DNA of 64,000 bases from Marinicella sp. (GCA_965230295.1 OZ246001.1:3680001-3744000); one strand, 5' to 3'; shown: positions 22,264 through 30,384, counted from the first letter of the stretch. Numbers and translations: made by a program. Notes: generated by a model from the sequence alone, not told the origin.

Positions 22264-24630
22264 TCATTCACACACATGTCCTTGAATTTCAGTTAAACGT
22301 GTCATGTTTAACTCACCATTTTGAAATTCGTTTGAGTTATCAGGCATATACTCAAAGGAAATGTTGTTATTATCTAAATAAGTTAATGAAAGGCTGCCCC
22401 ATTGGCTATTAATCAAGTCTTCAGGGTCAAAGGACCAACCATCATTCGCCAGTGGGTCAAAAAAGGAAGCTCCATTAAACTGGTTTAATTCGATCATAGC
22501 CATGTTATTGGCACTTAAAATTCCAGAGCCAACTAACCAAAATTGTTGACCATCATGATTAACAAACCATGCCACATTGATTTGATCTTGCTGATTGTTA
22601 TCAGTCATGTGAATAAACAAACCATGCCCTGATTGATCAGGATTATAAAAAGAACCGCTGTAGCAACCTTTTTGTAAATCAGATATTTCAGATAATTGTA
22701 TTAACTCAATTGAACCTGTTCCAAATTCAGAAGCATTGGCAGACCAATTCAAGTTCATTGAATTAGCCGTTTCAAAGTCTAATGTTGCCTGTCCCCATTG
22801 GGTCAAATTGACATCTTGGGTGTTAAAATCAGGGGGAAAATTTGTACCATCTGCAATATGCAGATCAATGGATATTGGTTGACCTTCAATGATTTCTCCA
22901 ACTCCTCCCACCCAAACAGGATTTGAATCATGGTGCGTAAACCAATACATATTCAAACGATCATTTTCGTTTTGAGAACCATTCAGCTTTTCCAAGAAAA
23001 TTCCGTGGCCTGGAGTTTCGCTGTTATACCAAGAACCCGAAATGTTTTCTAAGCTCACATAATTTTCAAAATGGAACTTTGACAAATCATAACTATTTAC
23101 TTCATCATTTCCTCTAAAGAAGTACTGATCTTCAATCATCACCAGGGATCCCATGTTACCTTTGTCTGTTAGGTTTTTAATAAAATGAAAAGAATTATCA
23201 TCACCGCTCATAAACCATAGTTCATCAGGACTGTCTACGGGCCTCATTAAAGAAATACGATAATATCGTTTGATGAAAAAAGCATCTTTCTCATTTAACA
23301 TGTTAAATTCACTGATCCTATCGTACTCACCGCCAGTAAATAGCAGTGTTGCAGGGGTTGTTTTATCTTTTAATTCCCATATTTCTGGCTCCCCTTCTGA
23401 GTTGTTTACCCAAAATAATATTCTGTCATCGTTCATATCCATGATCTCTAACTTAAGGTCAAAACGGTATCCGTTTGGGGAATCATCTGCAGTAGAATTA
23501 TCTGGCAAAAGAAGCAGTGAAGAATGCATCATTGTGGATTCAGCTGTTCCCTCAGTGGTCCATAGCTTGCGTCCATTTACACCATCTATTGCGGTAAAAA
23601 ACATTGTGTCTTTATAGAAGAAGAAATTTGCTGGATATGACCCAGCACCTGGTTCAGTGTCATTGATGTCTTTCAATAAAATGGTGCCTCCATTTGACCC
23701 GTCTGTTACCCAAATTTCCCAGCCGCTTTGTTCATCTGTGGCCACAAAATACAACAGATTGTTATGGACAATGTAGTGATAGTCATCATGTACTGGAGAC
23801 TCGGTGATTGGCCCGATTGATTTTACAAATGAAGTTCCACTTGCTATGCCATCCGTTTTCCAAAGCTCGACAACCCGATCTACATTTTCAAATGTAAAGT
23901 AAACTTCATTATTAAATACTATGTTATTAAGATTGATTGAAGACCAAGAATGCCCTTGTAAATCAAAGAAAGGCTTGGTGCCCTCAATTGTTCCATCTGT
24001 GGACCAAAGCATCTTATTCTCACCGTTTGAAGTCATGAATATTAAACTGCCATTTAATTCTGCCATGTAGCTTATATTTATTTCATAGTTGGTTAAAATG
24101 AAAGTTCCAGCATTTGACCCATCAGATACCCACAGAGAAAAACCTGACGAGGTCCTTGTTGTAAATAGCAATTTGTCATTGAATATTCGATAATTTGCAA
24201 TATTAACCCAAAAATAATCTTCTGGCTCAAATAGTCTTTTTACCATCGCAGTACCTGAGGCTGTACCATCAGTCTTCCATAATTGCCCACCAATGGATTG
24301 TGAAACACGATCATAGAAAATTTGATTATTAAATATGACTCTATCACTGAATTCTGGACTCCTAATAGAAGCCACAATTTTGTTACTATCATTCAATACT
24401 TGGACTGTATCATTTGTTACATTTGACTTCCAAAGTGTCCCATTAAATTCAGTCCAATAAACTTCATCATTTAGCTTGAACAGTAATTTGGGAAAAGTGT
24501 TTTCAACTACTGTTGATTGATTAATATTTGGTATGTTTTGATTTTCAGAATTATCAGCTTCAAAATAATGATTCTCGGGTATTGAAGCATCAATTAATGA
24601 TGAGAATAGAAATAAAATTATTGTTTTCAT
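22264..24630 (-). CDS. Secreted ELWxxDGT-repeat beta-propeller protein with two C-terminal SGSWYN...GHG repeats
   Basis: QLWKTDGT, ELWKTDG, EIWVTDG, KLWTTEGT; ISGSWYN...GHGIF and YSGSFYN...GHGLF. Confidence 0.85.
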   Translation of the reverse strand: MKTIILFLFSSLIDASIPENHYFEADNSENQNIPNINQSTVVENTFPKLLFKLNDEVYWTEFNGTLWKSNVTNDTVQVLNDSNKIVASIRSPEFSDRVIFNNQIFYDRVSQSIGGQLWKTDGTASGTAMVKRLFEPEDYFWVNIANYRIFNDKLLFTTRTSSGFSLWVSDGSNAGTFILTNYEINISYMAELNGSLIFMTSNGENKMLWSTDGTIEGTKPFFDLQGHSWSSINLNNIVFNNEVYFTFENVDRVVELWKTDGIASGTSFVKSIGPITESPVHDDYHYIVHNNLLYFVATDEQSGWEIWVTDGSNGGTILLKDINDTEPGAGSYPANFFFYKDTMFFTAIDGVNGRKLWTTEGTAESTMMHSSLLLLPDNSTADDSPNGYRFDLKLEIMDMNDDRILFWVNNSEGEPEIWELKDKTTPATLLFTGGEYDRISEFNMLNEKDAFFIKRYYRISLMRPVDSPDELWFMSGDDNSFHFIKNLTDKGNMGSLVMIEDQYFFRGNDEVNSYDLSKFHFENYVSLENISGSWYNSETPGHGIFLEKLNGSQNENDRLNMYWFTHHDSNPVWVGGVGEIIEGQPISIDLHIADGTNFPPDFNTQDVNLTQWGQATLDFETANSMNLNWSANASEFGTGSIELIQLSEISDLQKGCYSGSFYNPDQSGHGLFIHMTDNNQQDQINVAWFVNHDGQQFWLVGSGILSANNMAMIELNQFNGASFFDPLANDGWSFDPEDLINSQWGSLSLTYLDNNNISFEYMPDNSNEFQNGELNMTRLTEIQGHVCE

Positions 24631-25102: not shown

Positions 25103-25706
25103 GATGAAGACCATATCAGCGACCTACCCAATATTAGGAGAGTTATAAATATATCTATTCGCAATAGATCAATAACCTATGAACAGCTTCGAACTATAAA
25201 GCTACAATCAGGCCCTATTTCTAACGCAATGACATCAATGCTTGATATGCATAGCAATTACATTCATCCAATGCCTACACCAGCCCCTGAGTTCCCTAGA
25301 GTAAGTATAAACTATTACTACAACTCATACGGCACAGCCTATCCTGATAGTAACAATATCAGCTTAGTAACATTTGTAACTTGTGGTGACACAAAATTTA
25401 TAATACCTGGTGATGTTAAAAAATAAAGGATGGCAAGGCTTGCTTAGGCAGCCTGGTTTTATTGCTGACTTAAATGATGTGTCAGTTTTTATTGCATCAC
25501 ATCATGGCCGTGAGTCTGGCTACTGCCGAGATGTGTTCGACTATTGCTCACCAGATGTAATTGTTTTTTCTGATAGTAATATTCAACATGCCACCCAAGA
25601 AATGAGTTCAACATATGCTAATTATGCTAGTGGCATGGACTTTGATGGAACAACAAGGTACGTTGTTTCAACTCGAAACGATGGTGACTTATATTGGGAT
25701 AGATAG
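25103..25706 (+). pseudogene. ComEC/Rec2-like metallo-beta-lactamase-fold hydrolase fragment
   Basis: DEDHISDL immediately after the IS end; NNISLV, IPGD, ASHHGR; frameshift in a poly-A run near 25420. Confidence 0.75.
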
Positions 25707-26129: not shown

Positions 26130-27041
26130 ATGTTCAGAGTGTTTTGGTTCAGTTTTCTTTTTTCATTGCTGTTAATTTTAGTGGCTTGTGCTCCAACAGA
26201 ACAAAAATCTAAGCCAACCAAAGATGAACCCATTGTAGAACAGCCTTCAGAAACAGAGCTAGTAGATCCTGAGCCAGTAGAACCTGAACCAGTAGAACCT
26301 GAACCAGTAGAACCTGAACCAGTAGAACCTGAACCAGTAGAACCTGAACCAGTAGAACCTGAACCAGTAGAACCTGAACCAGTGGAGGCTGAAGCGGTAA
26401 AGCCTAGACCAGTAAAGCCAGAGCCAATGCAAGTGGGAACACACACTCTGAGAGGCAGTGTTGTATTGGATCAATCTAAGCTGAAGCGAAAGAATGCAGT
26501 TGTTGAGAATACAGTTGTTTATTTTGTGCCCGATTCCCTGGTGTCAAAACCGGTTCCCATGAAAGCAGAAATCAGCACTCAAAACAAGCGATTCAAACCA
26601 AACGTATTGGCAGTGACCGTTGGCAGTGAGGTGCTGTTTCCCAATATGGACCGGATACTACACAACGTTTTTTCTGTGACGCCAGCGAGTGAATTTGACC
26701 TGGGCCTGTATTCAGCAGGTACTACCCGTTCTGTTACTTTCAATGAACCAGGAATTATTTATGTTCACTGCAACGTGCATCATGCCATGCAAGCCGATCT
26801 CTTGGTTTTGGACACACCACATTTTGTTCAGGTAGATGATCAAGGGCGTTTTGAGTTATCGAATTTGCCTTCAACAGCAGGCACATTAAACTTTTGGCAC
26901 CCTCGTGCCCCTTTAGTCAATTTACGAGTCGATGCAGATACCGATGGAGAAGTGCAAAAACAAACCATTCAAGTGACACGTGTAAAAGTACCCAAACACA
27001 CCAATAAATTTGGCGAATCATATCGACCTACGAGAGATTAA
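26130..27041 (+). CDS. Lipoprotein with Pro/Glu linker and cupredoxin (MauL-like) domain
   Basis: LVAC lipobox; (PVEPE)n; FPNMD...HNVFS and CNVHHAM type-1 copper ligand pattern. Confidence 0.8.
   Translation: MFRVFWFSFLFSLLLILVACAPTEQKSKPTKDEPIVEQPSETELVDPEPVEPEPVEPEPVEPEPVEPEPVEPEPVEPEPVEPEPVEAEAVKPRPVKPEPMQVGTHTLRGSVVLDQSKLKRKNAVVENTVVYFVPDSLVSKPVPMKAEISTQNKRFKPNVLAVTVGSEVLFPNMDRILHNVFSVTPASEFDLGLYSAGTTRSVTFNEPGIIYVHCNVHHAMQADLLVLDTPHFVQVDDQGRFELSNLPSTAGTLNFWHPRAPLVNLRVDADTDGEVQKQTIQVTRVKVPKHTNKFGESYRPTRD
26274..26378 (+). repeat. Coding 15-bp tandem repeat, 7 perfect copies
   Basis: (CCAGTAGAACCTGAA)7 with degenerate flanking units. Confidence 0.97.
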
Positions 27042-27043
27042 TA

Positions 27044-29035
27044 ATGACGCGAAATACAGGTATTCGACTTAGCACTAAGATGACCATTGTGGCAGCGAGT
27101 TTGGTTATTATCACTTTATTGATTTCGATTTTCATCACGCTGTATTTTGGTAATCAAATGGCCAATGAATCAATCAACAAAAAACTTGATTCCAGCCAAT
27201 TGATTCAACAAGAATTCAGTACGCAGAAACTTCGACAATTGGAGCTGGTCTCACTGCTGATGGCATCTGACCCTGCATTTGTGGCTTATGTTGCCCAGAC
27301 CATATTTGATCTTGAATCTGGCGAACAACCAGATGTCGCATCCATCAGTGATTTGCTGTTAGAGAGAAAACAACAATATGGTTTTGATTTGGCAGTCATT
27401 GCAACAGCAGATGGACAACAATTAGCCAGATCAGATCAAGCTATGGCAGCTCCACGAGATTTACAAGACATGGATTTGATGGCAAAAGTCATGGTTGAAT
27501 TGTTGCCAACCAGCGGGTACTGGTTAGACAAGGAGCGCATTTATCAGGCAGCGATTGTTCCTTTAGCTCGGGGCAGGAACTTGATAGGTTTTTTGATTAC
27601 AGGTGTGGTTGTAGACAATAGTTTAACTGACACTGTTGCCAATCTAACAGGTACTGAGGTGCTGGTGATAGCTAACGAGAATCCATTAAGGGCTTTAGCA
27701 AGTACATTAGATCTTGATTTGACATCTACTATGTTGGATAAACTGTCAAATCGAGATTTGACTTCTGCGGCGTTAGCTAAACTGAGTATCAATAATTTGA
27801 ATTTGGCGATCAAGCAACAACCATTAACTGAAATAGATGGCATCAAATATGTTTTAGTCAATGGCGTTTCGGTTGATCAAGTCATAGCTCCATTTGCGCA
27901 AACAAGAAACCTCATATTAATGGCTGGTGGTGTGATCATCGTCTTTGGCCTTTTGATGGCGAGGTTACTGGTGAACCAGTCTTTGTCTCCATTAGAGAAA
28001 ATTTCACAAGCGACCAGACAAGTGTCTTTTGGGAACTATTCTGCCAGTTTCCCTAAGAAAGTTGGGCGTGACTTGGCTGATCTGAGTGGCTCAATCAATC
28101 AATTAATCCAGAATCTTAGGGGCAGAGATTCATTGGCCGCGCACATGGTGGAGATGAGTAAAAAATCAGATGACGTTATCAAAAGGCATCAAAGTCCACA
28201 AAAAGAACTCATCAAACCAGGAAAAGTTATTAACAATCGCTTTGAAGTCATAAAAAGTTTGGGCGTTGGTGGCATGGGCGCAGTATTTCAAGCTTTCGAT
28301 AAAGAGCTTGAGGAAGTTGTTGCTTTGAAAGTATTGAAAACTAAAAAAGCCGAAGAGTCAGAAATTAATTTGCTCAAAGATGAGATCAAAGTTGCCAGAA
28401 GGATTTCTCACCCAAATGTGGTTCGCATACATGATTTTGGGCAATTGGCAAACAACGTTTTTATCTCTATGGAATACGTTCAAGGTTACACCATTGAGCA
28501 AATTTTGAAGTATGCCAGAAAGTTGCGTCCACAAGCGGCCAAGCATGCAGCCATGCACATCTGTGAAGGCCTCAATGCCGCTCATAAAGCTGGGGTCATT
28601 CACAAAGACCTCAAGCCAGCTAATATCATTGTCGAGCTGGATTCCTCAATCAAACTGATGGACTTTGGCATCGCCTCAGTAGATCACATGATCAGTGGCC
28701 AAAGGTCAGATGAAATGGTGAGTGGTACTGCAGCTTATATTTCTCCAGAACAAGCTTTGGGCAAAGGGTCTGATGAGCGAACAGATATTTATGCTTTGGG
28801 TGTATTGATGATGGAACTGTTCATTGGCCAAAGACCGTTTTACGCTGCCACAGAGGAAGATTTGATGATGAAACACGTCAATGAAAAACCATTGGCTATC
28901 TCGTCTCAATGGGCTGATGCACCGAAGAGGCTGGACCAATTAATTCTTAAGTGCTTGGCGAAAAGCCCCAACGATAGACCGCAGTCTATACAAGAAGTGA
29001 TCAGCGAGCTTAAACAGATCAGTTTTTCAGGTTAG
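27044..29035 (+). CDS. Membrane sensor: periplasmic domain, HAMP and C-terminal Hanks-type Ser/Thr kinase
   Basis: Two TMs; HAMP-like SPLEKISQATRQVSFGNY; GVGGMG, VALK, HKDLKPAN, DFG, GTAAYISPEQ. Confidence 0.92.
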   Translation: MTRNTGIRLSTKMTIVAASLVIITLLISIFITLYFGNQMANESINKKLDSSQLIQQEFSTQKLRQLELVSLLMASDPAFVAYVAQTIFDLESGEQPDVASISDLLLERKQQYGFDLAVIATADGQQLARSDQAMAAPRDLQDMDLMAKVMVELLPTSGYWLDKERIYQAAIVPLARGRNLIGFLITGVVVDNSLTDTVANLTGTEVLVIANENPLRALASTLDLDLTSTMLDKLSNRDLTSAALAKLSINNLNLAIKQQPLTEIDGIKYVLVNGVSVDQVIAPFAQTRNLILMAGGVIIVFGLLMARLLVNQSLSPLEKISQATRQVSFGNYSASFPKKVGRDLADLSGSINQLIQNLRGRDSLAAHMVEMSKKSDDVIKRHQSPQKELIKPGKVINNRFEVIKSLGVGGMGAVFQAFDKELEEVVALKVLKTKKAEESEINLLKDEIKVARRISHPNVVRIHDFGQLANNVFISMEYVQGYTIEQILKYARKLRPQAAKHAAMHICEGLNAAHKAGVIHKDLKPANIIVELDSSIKLMDFGIASVDHMISGQRSDEMVSGTAAYISPEQALGKGSDERTDIYALGVLMMELFIGQRPFYAATEEDLMMKHVNEKPLAISSQWADAPKRLDQLILKCLAKSPNDRPQSIQEVISELKQISFSG

Positions 29036-29062
29036 TTGCGTGATGTAAACATTGCAATCTAA

Positions 29063-29093
29063 AGTCTGCATTGAATCATTGTAAATGCAGACT
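29063..29093. terminator. Hairpin between convergent genes
   Basis: AGTCTGCATT-11nt-AATGCAGACT. Confidence 0.6.
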
Positions 29094-29106
29094 GTGTCAT
29101 GAAATT

Positions 29107-29532
29107 TTATTCATACGTCACGTCTTCTCTCATAGGGGCAAATATAGCTAACACTTTATTTTGTAACCTAAAAGGAACTTGTGCATCTTCCATCGCCAAT
29201 ATAAAGTCCTCAACAAAAACGTCGTATTCAGAATATTTGATGTCCATGCCACTGTGAGCTTCCACCATGTCAAGGCCCTCATAAACACAGGGCCCACCTG
29301 TTTCCATGCAGATTTGGTCGACAATTTTAATGTGTAAGTCTTCACGGTCTGTTTCTTCAAATAAAAAATCAATTTTTGGATTGGTCAAGATACGATCCAA
29401 CAAATTTTTTGTGATATTTTCAATGACTGGTTTTCCCCCAAGCTTTTCATACAAAGTCTGCTCCGCCCAACTGTTCATAGCAGTGAATAAAAGTATCAGT
29501 CCCAATACTTTGATTTTGAATTGACGCCTCAT
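29107..29532 (-). CDS. Group 1 truncated hemoglobin with signal peptide
   Basis: TLYEKLGG, GGPCVYEG, proximal His in MVEAH; signal ending SWA. Confidence 0.9.
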   Translation of the reverse strand: MRRQFKIKVLGLILLFTAMNSWAEQTLYEKLGGKPVIENITKNLLDRILTNPKIDFLFEETDREDLHIKIVDQICMETGGPCVYEGLDMVEAHSGMDIKYSEYDVFVEDFILAMEDAQVPFRLQNKVLAIFAPMREDVTYE

Positions 29533-30384
29533 TTAAAAACTCCCATTGATAGATAGGTATAGACCTTTTTGGTCAGGCAATGTGGCTATGGTTCCAAGGT
29601 CTACATAGGCTGCAACAACTGAAACATGACGATTCGGCACCCAGGCCACGAAAATATCTCGCCAGTGATCTTCGCCGGCAAAGCTCAAATTAGAACGCTT
29701 TTGGCGAAAGTCAAATCCAATCGCCCAGCTTTTATTTAAAAACATACCAATAGAGGCTTCGGCATTGATATGCCGGTTACCTAAGTCTCCACCAAATCCT
29801 AGCAAACCCAACTCATTGGCTTCCGTTGATCGCAACGTCAAAGTGGCAAATCCATTGAAACCCCATGGTTTACCCAAAAATAATTTTGTTGCACTTAAAT
29901 AATAATCCAAACTACTGTCATCAGTGGCTCCAGCGACAGAAGGAATGAGAAAGTCACGGTTTTTTTTGTGTTGAACCCCAAATGAGATCTGTGGCATTTT
30001 GGTGTAGACTAGATTTCCTGCCAGCCTGACTTTTGCCCCAATCACGTTTTGTTCCAGAGAAGCTCCAGGTAAACCCAATGCTGGGCCTAATGTGACCAGG
30101 TCAAGCTCCTGGCGAGCAACTGATAATTCGAGCCTGTTGCGCCAGCCTAGAGATGCTCCAATCATGTCAAATCTATAATCGTCAGTATCCACGTATGTAT
30201 ACGCGGCAGTCAAATCAGTTTCATCGCTTTCACCATAACCTGCTATGGTTGCCCAACTCACGATACCACTACCTGAAGAACCTTCTACTTGCATGACAGC
30301 ACCAGTACCAAGTTGTCTGCTTCCAGCAAACACTTCTGGAACTACCCCACAAAGGATTACCAAAGAAATAAATATTAACTTCAT
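29533..30384 (-). CDS. DUF3034-family putative outer-membrane beta-barrel
   Basis: GTGAVMQVEGSSGSGIVSWATIAGY, ANELGLLGFGG, AAYVDLGTIA; terminal Phe. Confidence 0.8.
   Translation of the reverse strand: MKLIFISLVILCGVVPEVFAGSRQLGTGAVMQVEGSSGSGIVSWATIAGYGESDETDLTAAYTYVDTDDYRFDMIGASLGWRNRLELSVARQELDLVTLGPALGLPGASLEQNVIGAKVRLAGNLVYTKMPQISFGVQHKKNRDFLIPSVAGATDDSSLDYYLSATKLFLGKPWGFNGFATLTLRSTEANELGLLGFGGDLGNRHINAEASIGMFLNKSWAIGFDFRQKRSNLSFAGEDHWRDIFVAWVPNRHVSVVAAYVDLGTIATLPDQKGLYLSINGSF

What the first reader, a model, noticed from the sequence alone, without database searches (positions are those of the whole stretch)
26130..30384. Copper lipoprotein, exported globin, DUF3034 barrel and receptor Ser/Thr kinase: candidate trans-envelope signalling system
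Seen: two convergent, tightly coupled gene pairs sharing a hairpin. They encode a type-1-copper-motif lipoprotein, a TM-sensor-HAMP kinase, a signal-peptide group 1 truncated hemoglobin and a barrel ending in Phe. From recall (unverified here), DUF3034, globin and MauL-like genes usually cluster with a HAMP-GGDEF/EAL sensor. Inference: an uncharacterised O2/NO/redox sensing module whose output here is a protein kinase.
Basis: partly seen in the sequence, partly recalled or inferred. Interest (0 to 1): 0.75.

Follow-up and report, generated by a model that had tools for sequence, protein, structure and literature searches.

The report
Globin–copper envelope module with kinase output
Four adjacent genes for a blue-copper lipoprotein, a membrane receptor kinase, an outer-membrane barrel and an exported haem globin form a conserved but unstudied bacterial envelope module, here wired to protein phosphorylation instead of the usual c-di-GMP enzyme.

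Summary
Window 26130-30384 carries two convergent, tightly coupled gene pairs: a type-1-copper cupredoxin lipoprotein plus a TM / periplasmic-domain / HAMP / Hanks kinase, and a DUF3034 outer-membrane barrel plus a signal-peptide group-N truncated globin.

Among 77 other genomes with DUF3034, the globin is adjacent in 68, the cupredoxin lies nearby in 57, and all four genes occur together in 49. The usual sensor is dCache_3-HAMP-GGDEF-EAL (34 loci); a kinase output occurs in 14.

The kinase form is not confined to this genome. It is found in Marinicella and relatives, in several uncultured Gammaproteobacteria and in one Acidobacteriota MAG. It sits on one side of a single strongly supported tree branch.

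The copper ligands (His-Cys-His-Met), the globin's proximal His and a Cys pair are invariant. One genome fuses globin and barrel.

What the module senses is not shown. A haem/copper redox, O2 or NO relay is my preferred inference, at about 0.4.

My literature searches found no description of the module. Earlier agents of this scan saw the GGDEF-EAL version in three other genomes.

The parts
26130..27041 (+). Cupredoxin (type-1 copper) lipoprotein, 303 aa. Lipobox Cys20 with Ala at +2, a Pro-rich tether, then a cupredoxin plus beta-sandwich domain from about aa 104.
   Evidence: Pfam Copper-bind 22.1 bits, cut-off 21.2. H178, C214, H217 and M220 are invariant in 52 homologues. AF2 model pLDDT 94.3. 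Foldseek matches pseudoazurin, amicyanin and plastocyanin.
26261..26383 (+). 15-nt tandem repeat, 8.2 copies, encoding (PEPVE)n within the tether.
   Evidence: TRF reports 98% matches. Relatives carry other Pro-rich repeats such as KPEP and KPVET.
27044..29035 (+). Receptor Ser/Thr kinase, 663 aa: TM1, a periplasmic domain of about 250 aa, TM2, HAMP (aa 309-359), Hanks kinase (aa 400-652).
   Evidence: Pkinase 3.9e-54 and HAMP 4.4e-6. Hydrophobic segments. Orthologues score dCache_3. Kinase motifs read from the sequence.
27149..27901 (+). Periplasmic sensor domain (aa 36-286), homologous to the dCache_3 domains of the GGDEF-EAL sensors.
   Evidence: Alignments A4 and A8. The profile of A8 finds 2257 clusters at E<=1e-30. 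The window protein itself gave no dCache_3 hit at E<=0.01.
29063..29093 (.). Inverted repeat (10-bp stem, 11-nt loop) in the 71-nt gap between the convergent pairs.
   Evidence: Not listed by the terminator scan.
29107..29532 (-). Exported group-N truncated globin, 141 aa. Leader of about 23 aa (…NSWA/EQ). Proximal His93. Cys75 and Cys82.
   Evidence: Bac_globin 1.1e-13. Best solved relatives are the Shewanella benthica TrHbN-2 entries. C75, C82, G86, M89 and H93 are invariant in 51 homologues.
29533..30384 (-). DUF3034 outer-membrane beta-barrel (283 aa from the ATG; the ORF also opens at GTG 30396). Signal peptide, conserved Gly-rich N-terminal segment, C-terminal Phe.
   Evidence: PF11231 335.5 bits. 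AF2 model pLDDT 91.6 with 12 long strands. Foldseek top hits FapF, NanC, OmpG and a COG4313 channel.

Best explanation
The four genes belong to a conserved, uncharacterised envelope module made of two sub-modules.

(a) A periplasmic type-1-copper cupredoxin, translationally coupled to an inner-membrane dCache_3-HAMP sensor.
(b) A DUF3034 outer-membrane barrel, translationally coupled to a Sec-exported TrHbN-type globin.

In most Pseudomonadota the sensor ends in GGDEF-EAL. In Marinicella and a few other lineages the homologous sensor ends in a Hanks Ser/Thr kinase.

Most likely working (inferred). The globin, held at or near the barrel, reacts with a small oxidant or gas such as O2, NO or peroxide. 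It exchanges electrons with the cupredoxin. The redox or occupancy state of the cupredoxin is read by the sensor's periplasmic domain. The HAMP domain passes this on, and here the kinase phosphorylates unknown cytoplasmic targets.

In Marinicella the cupredoxin is an outer-membrane lipoprotein on a Pro-rich tether of about 84 residues, long enough to reach the inner-membrane sensor.

Shown: gene and domain identities, export signals, invariant metal ligands, co-occurrence, and one ancient split of output type.
Inferred: the ligand, copper-haem electron transfer, and all contacts.

My odds: about 0.85 that this is a real conserved signalling module with a swapped output, and about 0.4 for the redox/gas relay.
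For: **Identities.**

**Invariant residues.** The copper ligands H-C-H-M are invariant in 52 of 52 homologues, with a C-x2-H-x2-M spacing. The globin's proximal His and a C-x6-C pair are invariant in 51 of 51. The Cys pair fits an oxidising compartment.

**Export.** My script detected leaders on 45 of 51 globins, 27 of them with a lipobox. The other 6 were mis-parsed and show a leader by eye.

**Co-occurrence across 77 DUF3034 loci**:
- globin adjacent in 68
- cupredoxin nearby in 57
- sensor of the family in 52
- all four in 49, which is 38 of 64 outside the window's own family

**Within the genus.** DUF3034 is in 12 of 23 genomes. The globin is in 11 of 23, all of them genomes that also have DUF3034. 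The kinase sensor is in those 11 plus 3 more.

**When the pairs are unlinked.** The cupredoxin lies elsewhere in 4 of 5 genomes, each time followed by a sensor.

**Natural fusion.** One genome encodes signal peptide, globin, linker and DUF3034 as one protein.

**Kinase form.** 30 loci with kinase-type sensors were found. The cupredoxin lies directly upstream in 27; the other 3 sit at contig starts. Barrel and globin are both present in 21.

**Tree.** 29 kinase-type rows are separated from 32 GGDEF-EAL rows by one branch with SH-aLRT 100.

**Biochemistry of the nearest solved globin.** The Phe(CD1) variant of SbHbN forms an oxy complex and the ferrous form is five-coordinate (PMC11904497, section read). 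The window globin has Phe at the aligned CD1 position (my reading).
Against: - There is no experimental datum on any member.
- No contact between the proteins is shown.
- The two pairs are separable. Three Marinicella genomes (91-96% complete) and two MAGs have the cupredoxin-kinase pair but no DUF3034.
- Nine of the 77 DUF3034 loci lack the globin. Seven of these belong to a group in which 4 loci sit beside sigma-54 activators.
- In this window the pairs are convergent, so they are separate transcripts.
- Type-1 copper proteins are usually electron carriers, not sensors.
- The globin's E10 position is not conserved and its distal pocket is hydrophobic, which the cited paper links with low O2 affinity.
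- The window protein itself does not reach the dCache_3 threshold.
- No kinase substrate, FHA protein or phosphatase lies nearby.
Confidence: 0.55

Rival explanations
1. Two independent systems that often share an operon. The cupredoxin-sensor pair detects something of its own, such as periplasmic copper or the redox poise of the respiratory chain. The barrel-globin pair is a separate periplasmic enzyme unit, such as an NO dioxygenase, peroxidase or O2 reductase fed by periplasmic electron carriers. It would be co-regulated with the sensor but would not signal to it.
For: - The pairs are separable and occur at distant sites in some genomes.
- In this window they are convergent.
- Periplasmic truncated-globin domains in cable bacteria are proposed as O2 reductases (PMC11976967, passages read).
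- SbHbN reacts with peroxide and does not bind O2 reversibly (PMC11904497: abstract, sections).
Against: - The commonest layout is same-strand, in the order cupredoxin, sensor, barrel, globin, with the sensor between the partners.
- In the genus the barrel-globin pair never occurs without the sensor: 11 of 11 genomes with a usable contig.
- At the genome level they co-occur in 4 of 5 unlinked cases.
Confidence: 0.25
2. The barrel is a dedicated translocator or anchor that displays the globin on the cell surface, in the manner of an autotransporter or FapF. The module would then read an extracellular cue or capture haem outside the cell.
For: - The model has 12 long strands, and its best structural matches are the FapF polypeptide transporter and NanC. 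The autotransporter EstA also appears in the list.
- In the natural fusion the globin precedes the barrel, which is the passenger-barrel order.
- 27 or more of the 51 globins are lipoproteins.
- The invariant cysteines are closely spaced.
Against: - Nothing shows surface exposure.
- A folded haem protein is a poor passenger for a narrow barrel.
- The barrel has its own conserved Gly-rich N-terminal segment that may plug it.
- The structural matches are generic small barrels, with TM-scores of 0.45-0.5.
Confidence: 0.1
3. A copper-homeostasis sensor. The cupredoxin-like protein reports copper availability as apo versus holo form, and the globin and barrel are accessory.
For: - The copper-site ligands are invariant.
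- One locus (L073) has a copper-type P1B ATPase next to the cluster.
Against: - Only 1 of the loci scanned shows such a neighbour.
- The H-C-H-M set with amicyanin spacing is typical of electron-transfer sites (typicality is established knowledge).
- This reading does not explain the conserved globin.
Confidence: 0.07

Closest known systems
GGDEF-EAL version of the same four-gene module
   Same: It has the same cupredoxin, DUF3034 barrel and exported TrHbN globin, and a homologous dCache_3-HAMP sensor.
   Different: The output there is GGDEF-EAL and here a Hanks kinase. The gene order there is usually one same-strand operon and here two convergent pairs. The cupredoxin there is usually soluble and about 220 aa; here it is a lipoprotein on a Pro-rich tether.
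YfiBNR (TpbB) of Pseudomonas aeruginosa
   Same: The logic is similar: an outer-membrane lipoprotein and a periplasmic protein control an inner-membrane enzyme that has a periplasmic domain and a HAMP domain.
   Different: None of the protein families is shared. YfiBNR contains no haem or copper protein, and its output is a diguanylate cyclase.
TagQRST-PpkA threonine phosphorylation pathway of the P. aeruginosa H1-T6SS (recalled, not checked here)
   Same: It is a Gram-negative receptor Hanks kinase whose periplasmic input depends on a periplasmic protein held by an outer-membrane lipoprotein.
   Different: The sensor domain differs (no dCache_3 or HAMP in PpkA, by recall). There are no metalloproteins. 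No T6SS, FHA or phosphatase genes lie near this locus.
Shewanella benthica SbHbN, a TrHbN subgroup-2 globin (PDB 8tls, 7tt9, 8ugz, 9yg7; PMC11904497)
   Same: It is the best solved-structure match of the window globin (E 2e-15 to 2e-14). Both have a hydrophobic distal pocket and share Cys at E16.
   Different: SbHbN has Tyr at CD1, His at B13 and Met at E10, and it lacks the second Cys of the invariant pair. In the main text of the paper, searches for signal peptide, periplasm, operon, lipoprotein and genomic context gave 0 hits.
Amicyanin, pseudoazurin and plastocyanin (type-1 copper electron carriers)
   Same: The fold matches, the H-C-H-M ligand set is present, and the C-x2-H-x2-M loop spacing is the same as in amicyanin.
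   Different: Here the cupredoxin core is embedded in a 200-aa two-part beta structure and encoded next to a sensor. Sequence similarity is marginal.
H-NOX or NosP haem sensors paired with c-di-GMP enzymes or kinases (recalled)
   Same: A stand-alone haem protein controls a separate signalling enzyme in trans.
   Different: Those sensors are cytoplasmic and belong to other folds. Here the haem protein is exported and accompanied by a copper protein and a barrel.

Membership tests
DUF3034 (PF11231) | Match to the family HMM above the gathering score | tested here: met
   335.5 bits against 25, covering 254 of 255 positions.
DUF3034 (PF11231) | Outer-membrane beta-barrel: signal peptide, all-beta barrel, C-terminal aromatic residue | tested here: met
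   AF2 pLDDT 91.6 with 12 long strands. Foldseek matches FapF, NanC and OmpG. Leader MKLIFISLVILCGVVPEVFA, and the protein ends in Phe. Localisation itself is not testable here.
Group N (group 1) truncated haemoglobin | Bac_globin HMM match and proximal His F8 | tested here: met
   51.9 bits against 21. H93 is invariant in 51 of 51 homologues.
TrHbN subgroup 2 | Groups with TrHbN-2 sequences; hydrophobic B10, E7 and E11; Phe at CD1 | tested here: inconclusive
   The best PDB matches are TrHbN-2 entries. Residues were read off that alignment (Leu B10, Phe CD1, Leu E7, Ile E11), but I built no globin phylogeny.
Group N truncated haemoglobin | Binds haem b | not testable with these tools
   Needs purified protein.
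Cupredoxin, type-1 copper (PF00127) | HMM above the gathering score, and cupredoxin fold | tested here: met
   22.1 bits against 21.2, which is marginal. AF2 pLDDT 94.3. Foldseek to plastocyanin gives TMt 0.81 and rmsd 2.0 A.
Cupredoxin, type-1 copper | His, Cys, His and Met ligand set | tested here: met
   H178, C214, H217 and M220 are invariant in 52 of 52 homologues and in 58 of 58 in alignment A9. Copper binding itself is not testable.
MauL-like protein | Homology to MauL of methylamine-utilisation clusters | not tested
   No MauL model appeared in the Pfam or NCBIfam output. Database names could not be fetched. One literature search gave nothing usable.
Hanks-type Ser/Thr kinase (PF00069) | HMM match and catalytic motifs | tested here: met
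   184.2 bits. Read from the sequence: GVGGMG, VALK, HKD…N (Lys in place of the usual Arg), DFG and SPE are all present.
dCache_3 (PF14827) sensor | HMM match in the periplasmic region | tested here: inconclusive
   The window protein gave no hit at E<=0.01. The orthologue L025 scores 34.1 bits against 25.7, and most GGDEF-EAL homologues score as well. Precomputed hits exist for close relatives.
HAMP (PF00672) | HMM match after TM2 | tested here: met
   27.4 bits against 25, aa 309-359.
YfiBNR | Homologues of YfiB, YfiR and YfiN | tested here: not met
   The Pfam and NCBIfam scans of the four proteins show only the families listed above. The resemblance is in logic only.
TagQRST-PpkA | PpkA-type periplasmic domain, with FHA, phosphatase and T6SS genes nearby | tested here: not met
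   No such domains occur in the kinase or in the neighbours at 21.7-36.3 kb.

The most novel reading that the evidence does not exclude
A periplasmic haem-copper redox relay. An exported globin docked at its own outer-membrane barrel passes its oxidation or ligand state, through a tethered blue-copper protein, to a Cache-HAMP receptor. The same input device has been plugged by evolution into c-di-GMP turnover, Ser/Thr phosphorylation and probably also His-kinase and cyclase outputs. This would be a new class of signal input for bacterial receptors. It would also give the first physiological role for DUF3034 and for the TrHbN-2 globins.
Probability: 0.3. Interest if true: 0.8.

Novelty: new variant of a known kind. 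Interest (0 to 1): 0.62.

Why it matters
If the reading is right, three things follow.

1. It gives a context to two orphan families. One is DUF3034. The other is subgroup-2 TrHbN globins, of which about 1500 sequences exist according to PMC11904497 (section read). It places these globins outside the cytoplasm, which changes how their odd biochemistry should be read.

2. It defines a metalloprotein-based periplasmic input for Cache-HAMP receptors.

3. It offers a natural experiment in output swapping. The same input is wired to GGDEF-EAL in 34 loci and to a Hanks kinase in 14 of the 77 sampled loci. Among the 150 best representative clusters of the sensor family, 9 carry histidine-kinase outputs and 4 carry nucleotide-cyclase outputs.

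The kinase form gives a receptor Ser/Thr kinase in a Gram-negative with a definable periplasmic partner, which is rare. In the 2016 Cache census, dCache_3 with a Ser/Thr kinase was counted once in 883 proteins (PMC4822843, Table 1).

Tried and rejected
- **Complex prediction.** Cupredoxin domain (aa 104-303) against the sensor's periplasmic domain (aa 36-286), both with alignments. Result: no verdict, score 0.00 in both runs, controls not run.
- **Origin of the insert.** I tested whether the ~240-aa insert of the long kinase forms is a decayed GGDEF domain. hhalign gave probability 0.4 and E 0.15. Pfam gave one sub-threshold Guanylate_cyc hit in 1 of 7 inserts (E 0.004, 17.2 bits against 21.9). 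This stays unresolved. A decayed cyclase-homology domain is my guess.
- **Search for fusions.** Globin fusions among longer proteins: none with the single sequence. With the profile, one hit of globin plus DUF4394. These searches are weak. The L080 fusion seen was not recovered.
- **Export route.** Tat export of the globin: the window leader reads MRRQF, but an RR motif is present in only 3 of 51 homologues. Sec export is more likely.
- **Loss of c-di-GMP signalling as the reason for the kinase output.** Rejected. The genome has 35 GGDEF and 15 EAL matches, beside 21 Pkinase matches above the cut-off.
- **Expression.** No RNA holder is listed for this stretch. No reads were laid.
- **Terminator.** The hairpin is not listed by the consensus terminator scan.
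- **Literature.** Searches found no description of the module. One search only gave general Cache papers. Supplements were not opened.

Full report
**1. Observation.**

The cupredoxin gene (26130-27041, +) ends in TAA, and the kinase ATG follows 2 nt later at 27044. On the other strand the DUF3034 gene (30384-29533) ends in TAA, directly followed by the ATG of the globin gene (29532-29107).

The two pairs converge on a 71-nt gap. The gap contains a 10-bp stem with an 11-nt loop (29063-29093). It folds at -17.6 kcal/mol with z = -2.03. It has no T-run and was not listed by the terminator scan. The hairpin is therefore real but unremarkable.

**2. What the parts are.**

*Pfam.* The matches are Copper-bind (22.1 bits, cut-off 21.2), Pkinase (3.9e-54) with HAMP (27.4 bits), Bac_globin (1.1e-13) and DUF3034 (2.9e-100).

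*Cupredoxin.*
- It starts with a lipobox leader (…LILVAC, Ala at +2).
- A Pro-rich stretch follows, including 8.2 copies of a 15-nt repeat encoding PEPVE.
- The C-terminal 200 aa fold with pLDDT 94.3. The core matches pseudoazurin, amicyanin and plastocyanin.
- In 52 homologues His178, Cys214, His217 and Met220 are invariant, with the spacing C-x2-H-x2-M.

*Kinase.*
- It has two hydrophobic segments, at about aa 13-35 and 290-310, around a loop of about 250 aa.
- It carries all Hanks motifs, with HKD in place of HRD (read).
- Its periplasmic loop did not itself reach dCache_3. Its orthologues and the GGDEF-EAL homologues do.

*Globin.*
- Its best solved relatives are the Shewanella benthica TrHbN-2 structures.
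- Across 51 cluster-linked homologues Cys75, Cys82, Gly86, Met89 and His93 (F8) are invariant.
- All 51 have an N-terminal hydrophobic leader. My script detected 45, of which 27 have a lipobox. The 6 it mis-parsed show leaders by eye.
- An RR motif is not conserved (3 of 51), so I infer Sec export with haem insertion in the periplasm.

*DUF3034.* It folds with pLDDT 91.6 into 12 long strands. It resembles small outer-membrane barrels such as FapF, NanC, OmpG and a COG4313 channel. Its most conserved part is a Gly-rich segment just after the signal peptide.

**3. Co-occurrence.**

DUF3034 is patchy. It was found in 21 of 41 relatives, 22 of 400 sampled genomes of the class and 42 of 401 of the phylum; these counts include the window's genome.

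I fetched the neighbourhoods of all 77 other genomes with a full match. I left out one 37-position fragment (G296) and the broken second copy in G540. Genes were called with my own ORF script and scored with HMMs built here, so start codons are approximate.

| Feature | Loci of 77 |
|---|---|
| Globin adjacent | 68 |
| Cupredoxin in the flank | 57 |
| Sensor of the family | 52 |
| - GGDEF-EAL | 34 |
| - GGDEF only or split | 3 |
| - kinase | 14 |
| - atypical (L024) | 1 |
| All four genes | 49 |

Outside the window's own family, all four genes occur in 38 of 64 loci. The usual layout is cupredoxin, sensor, barrel, globin on one strand. These genomes are samples and include relatives, so the counts are descriptive.

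Of the 9 loci without a globin:
- one is cut by a contig end;
- one is L049;
- seven form a separate group (L054-L056, L058-L061), of which four sit beside PAS-sigma54 activators.

**4. The kinase form.**

Source names show that the genus is Marinicella.

A pattern scan of 185,579 species genomes with the kinase-type sensor N-terminus returned 30 loci.

- A kinase domain follows in 29. The other locus is cut.
- The cupredoxin is directly upstream in 27. The other 3 loci begin at a contig start.
- Barrel and globin are both present in 21.

There are two forms:
- A short form of about 660 aa, found in Marinicellaceae, a Wenzhouxiangellaceae MAG and a Lysobacterales MAG.
- A long form of about 866-900 aa with a ~240-aa insert after HAMP, found in uncultured Gammaproteobacteria, two genomes of another family of the same order and one Acidobacteriota MAG.

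A quick IQ-TREE of 61 sensor N-terminal regions puts 29 kinase-type and 32 GGDEF-EAL-type rows on either side of one branch (SH-aLRT 100). I left out L024, the GGDEF-only forms and exact duplicates. The careful search did not finish. The output therefore differs by one old event, not by a recent swap in Marinicella.

A profile of all 61 finds 2257 clusters at E<=1e-30 among 1.84 billion representatives. Outputs among the best 150:

| Output | Clusters of 150 |
|---|---|
| GGDEF-EAL | 77 |
| GGDEF without EAL (23 of them under 560 aa) | 27 |
| Kinase | 22 |
| Histidine kinase | 9 |
| Nucleotide cyclase | 4 |
| HAMP only | 1 |
| Fragments or not scanned | 10 |

The window's genome has 35 GGDEF, 15 EAL and 21 Pkinase matches. 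The kinase output is thus not a consequence of losing c-di-GMP signalling.

**5. Two sub-modules.**

Within the genus (23 other genomes):
- DUF3034 occurs in 12.
- The globin occurs in 11 of those same 12. The twelfth contig is cut.
- The kinase sensor occurs in those 11 plus G010, G012 and G017, which are 91-96% complete.

Those three genomes and two further MAGs have no DUF3034 anywhere (0 of 5). Three of the five are the same assemblies as G010, G012 and G017.

Conversely, in five genomes where barrel and globin stand alone, a cupredoxin lies elsewhere in four. Each is followed by a sensor, two GGDEF-EAL and two long kinase.

One genome (locus L080) encodes signal peptide, globin, a short linker and DUF3034 as one 456-aa ORF.

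Flanking genes in the window are unrelated housekeeping genes (RimK, MscS, CorA-like, TamA). The flanks differ between Marinicella genomes, so the block moves as a unit.

**6. How it probably works.**

*Shown:* three exported proteins with invariant haem and copper ligands, genetically tied to a Cache-HAMP receptor whose output varies.

*Inferred:* the globin, at or near its barrel, reacts with a small oxidant or gas. The cupredoxin exchanges electrons with it. The cupredoxin's state is read by the receptor.

The Marinicella-specific change of the cupredoxin fits a protein that must reach the inner-membrane receptor. It has gone from a soluble protein of about 220 aa to an outer-membrane lipoprotein on a tether of about 84 residues, and the tether repeats differ between species. 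This too is inference.

Published work on the nearest solved globin shows a five-coordinate ferrous form. It also shows an oxy complex in the Phe(CD1) variant, which is the residue present here (PMC11904497; sections read).

I give the relay reading about 0.4. Three rivals are set out in their own section. The first treats the pairs as two systems sharing regulation. The second has the barrel display the globin on the cell surface. The third reads the module as a copper sensor.

The only complex prediction I could run gave no verdict.

**7. Comparison with what is known.**

- My searches found no paper on this module. DUF3034 occurs in only three papers, each with one passing mention (search listing only).
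- In the main text of the SbHbN paper, searches for signal peptide, periplasm, operon, lipoprotein and genomic context gave 0 hits.
- Periplasmic truncated-globin domains are described in cable bacteria, fused to multihaem cytochromes (PMC11976967, passages).
- The 2016 Cache census lists one dCache_3 Ser/Thr kinase among 883 dCache_3 proteins (PMC4822843, Table 1).
- Three earlier notes of this scan describe the GGDEF-EAL form in other genomes. I re-derived that association independently here.
- In logic the module resembles YfiBNR and TagQRST-PpkA (both recalled), but it shares no family with them.

**8. Verdict.**

The finding is a real, conserved and unstudied module. This window shows its kinase-output variant, together with a lineage-specific tethered cupredoxin. 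The domain families and the accessory-protein logic are known. The haem-copper-barrel input and its coupling to a Hanks kinase are new.

The function remains inferred.

Noticed in passing
L046, L049, L114-L121, L123, L125, L126, L128 (aa ~360-600 of the long kinase sensors): The long kinase forms carry a conserved ~240-aa insert between HAMP and the kinase domain. It gave one sub-threshold Guanylate_cyc hit (E 0.004) and no significant profile match to GGDEF. Cyclase-output members of the same sensor family exist (P0257, P0232, P0265, P0177).
   Followed up: partly
L080:8422-9792 (+): A natural fusion of signal peptide, truncated globin, a short Ala/Pro/Gly linker and the DUF3034 barrel in one 456-aa ORF. 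The same genome has a cupredoxin plus GGDEF-EAL sensor pair about 3 Mb away (L129).
   Followed up: partly
L054, L055, L056, L058 (and L059-L061): A DUF3034 subgroup without globin or cupredoxin. Four of these loci sit next to PAS_4-sigma54-HTH_8 activators.
   Followed up: no
L024:9661-11334 (-): A 557-aa protein downstream of a cupredoxin gene. It has a weak sensor N-terminus (E 7e-16) and only a partial kinase match, with no Pfam hit at 1e-5. It may be a decayed kinase sensor.
   Followed up: no
window 22264-24630 (-): A 788-aa exported protein with repeated LW.TDGT..GT motifs and no Pfam match. It lies in a lower-GC stretch (0.32-0.38 against about 0.42) upstream of the module.
   Followed up: no
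window 25229-25706 (+): Two short overlapping ORFs (65 and 98 aa) with no Pfam hit. They look like pieces of one disrupted gene.
   Followed up: no
whole genome G000: 21 Pkinase matches above the cut-off in a 4.0-Mb gammaproteobacterium, many in ORFs of 840-990 aa. This is an unusually large Hanks-kinase complement.
   Followed up: no
L042, L062, L063 (family f205): A second HAMP-GGDEF-EAL gene (~800 aa) of the same sensor family lies immediately upstream of the cupredoxin gene, giving two paralogous sensors per module.
   Followed up: no
P0223 (1045 aa): A kinase-type sensor representative with a C-terminal region that gives a weak Porin_5 match after the kinase domain.
   Followed up: no
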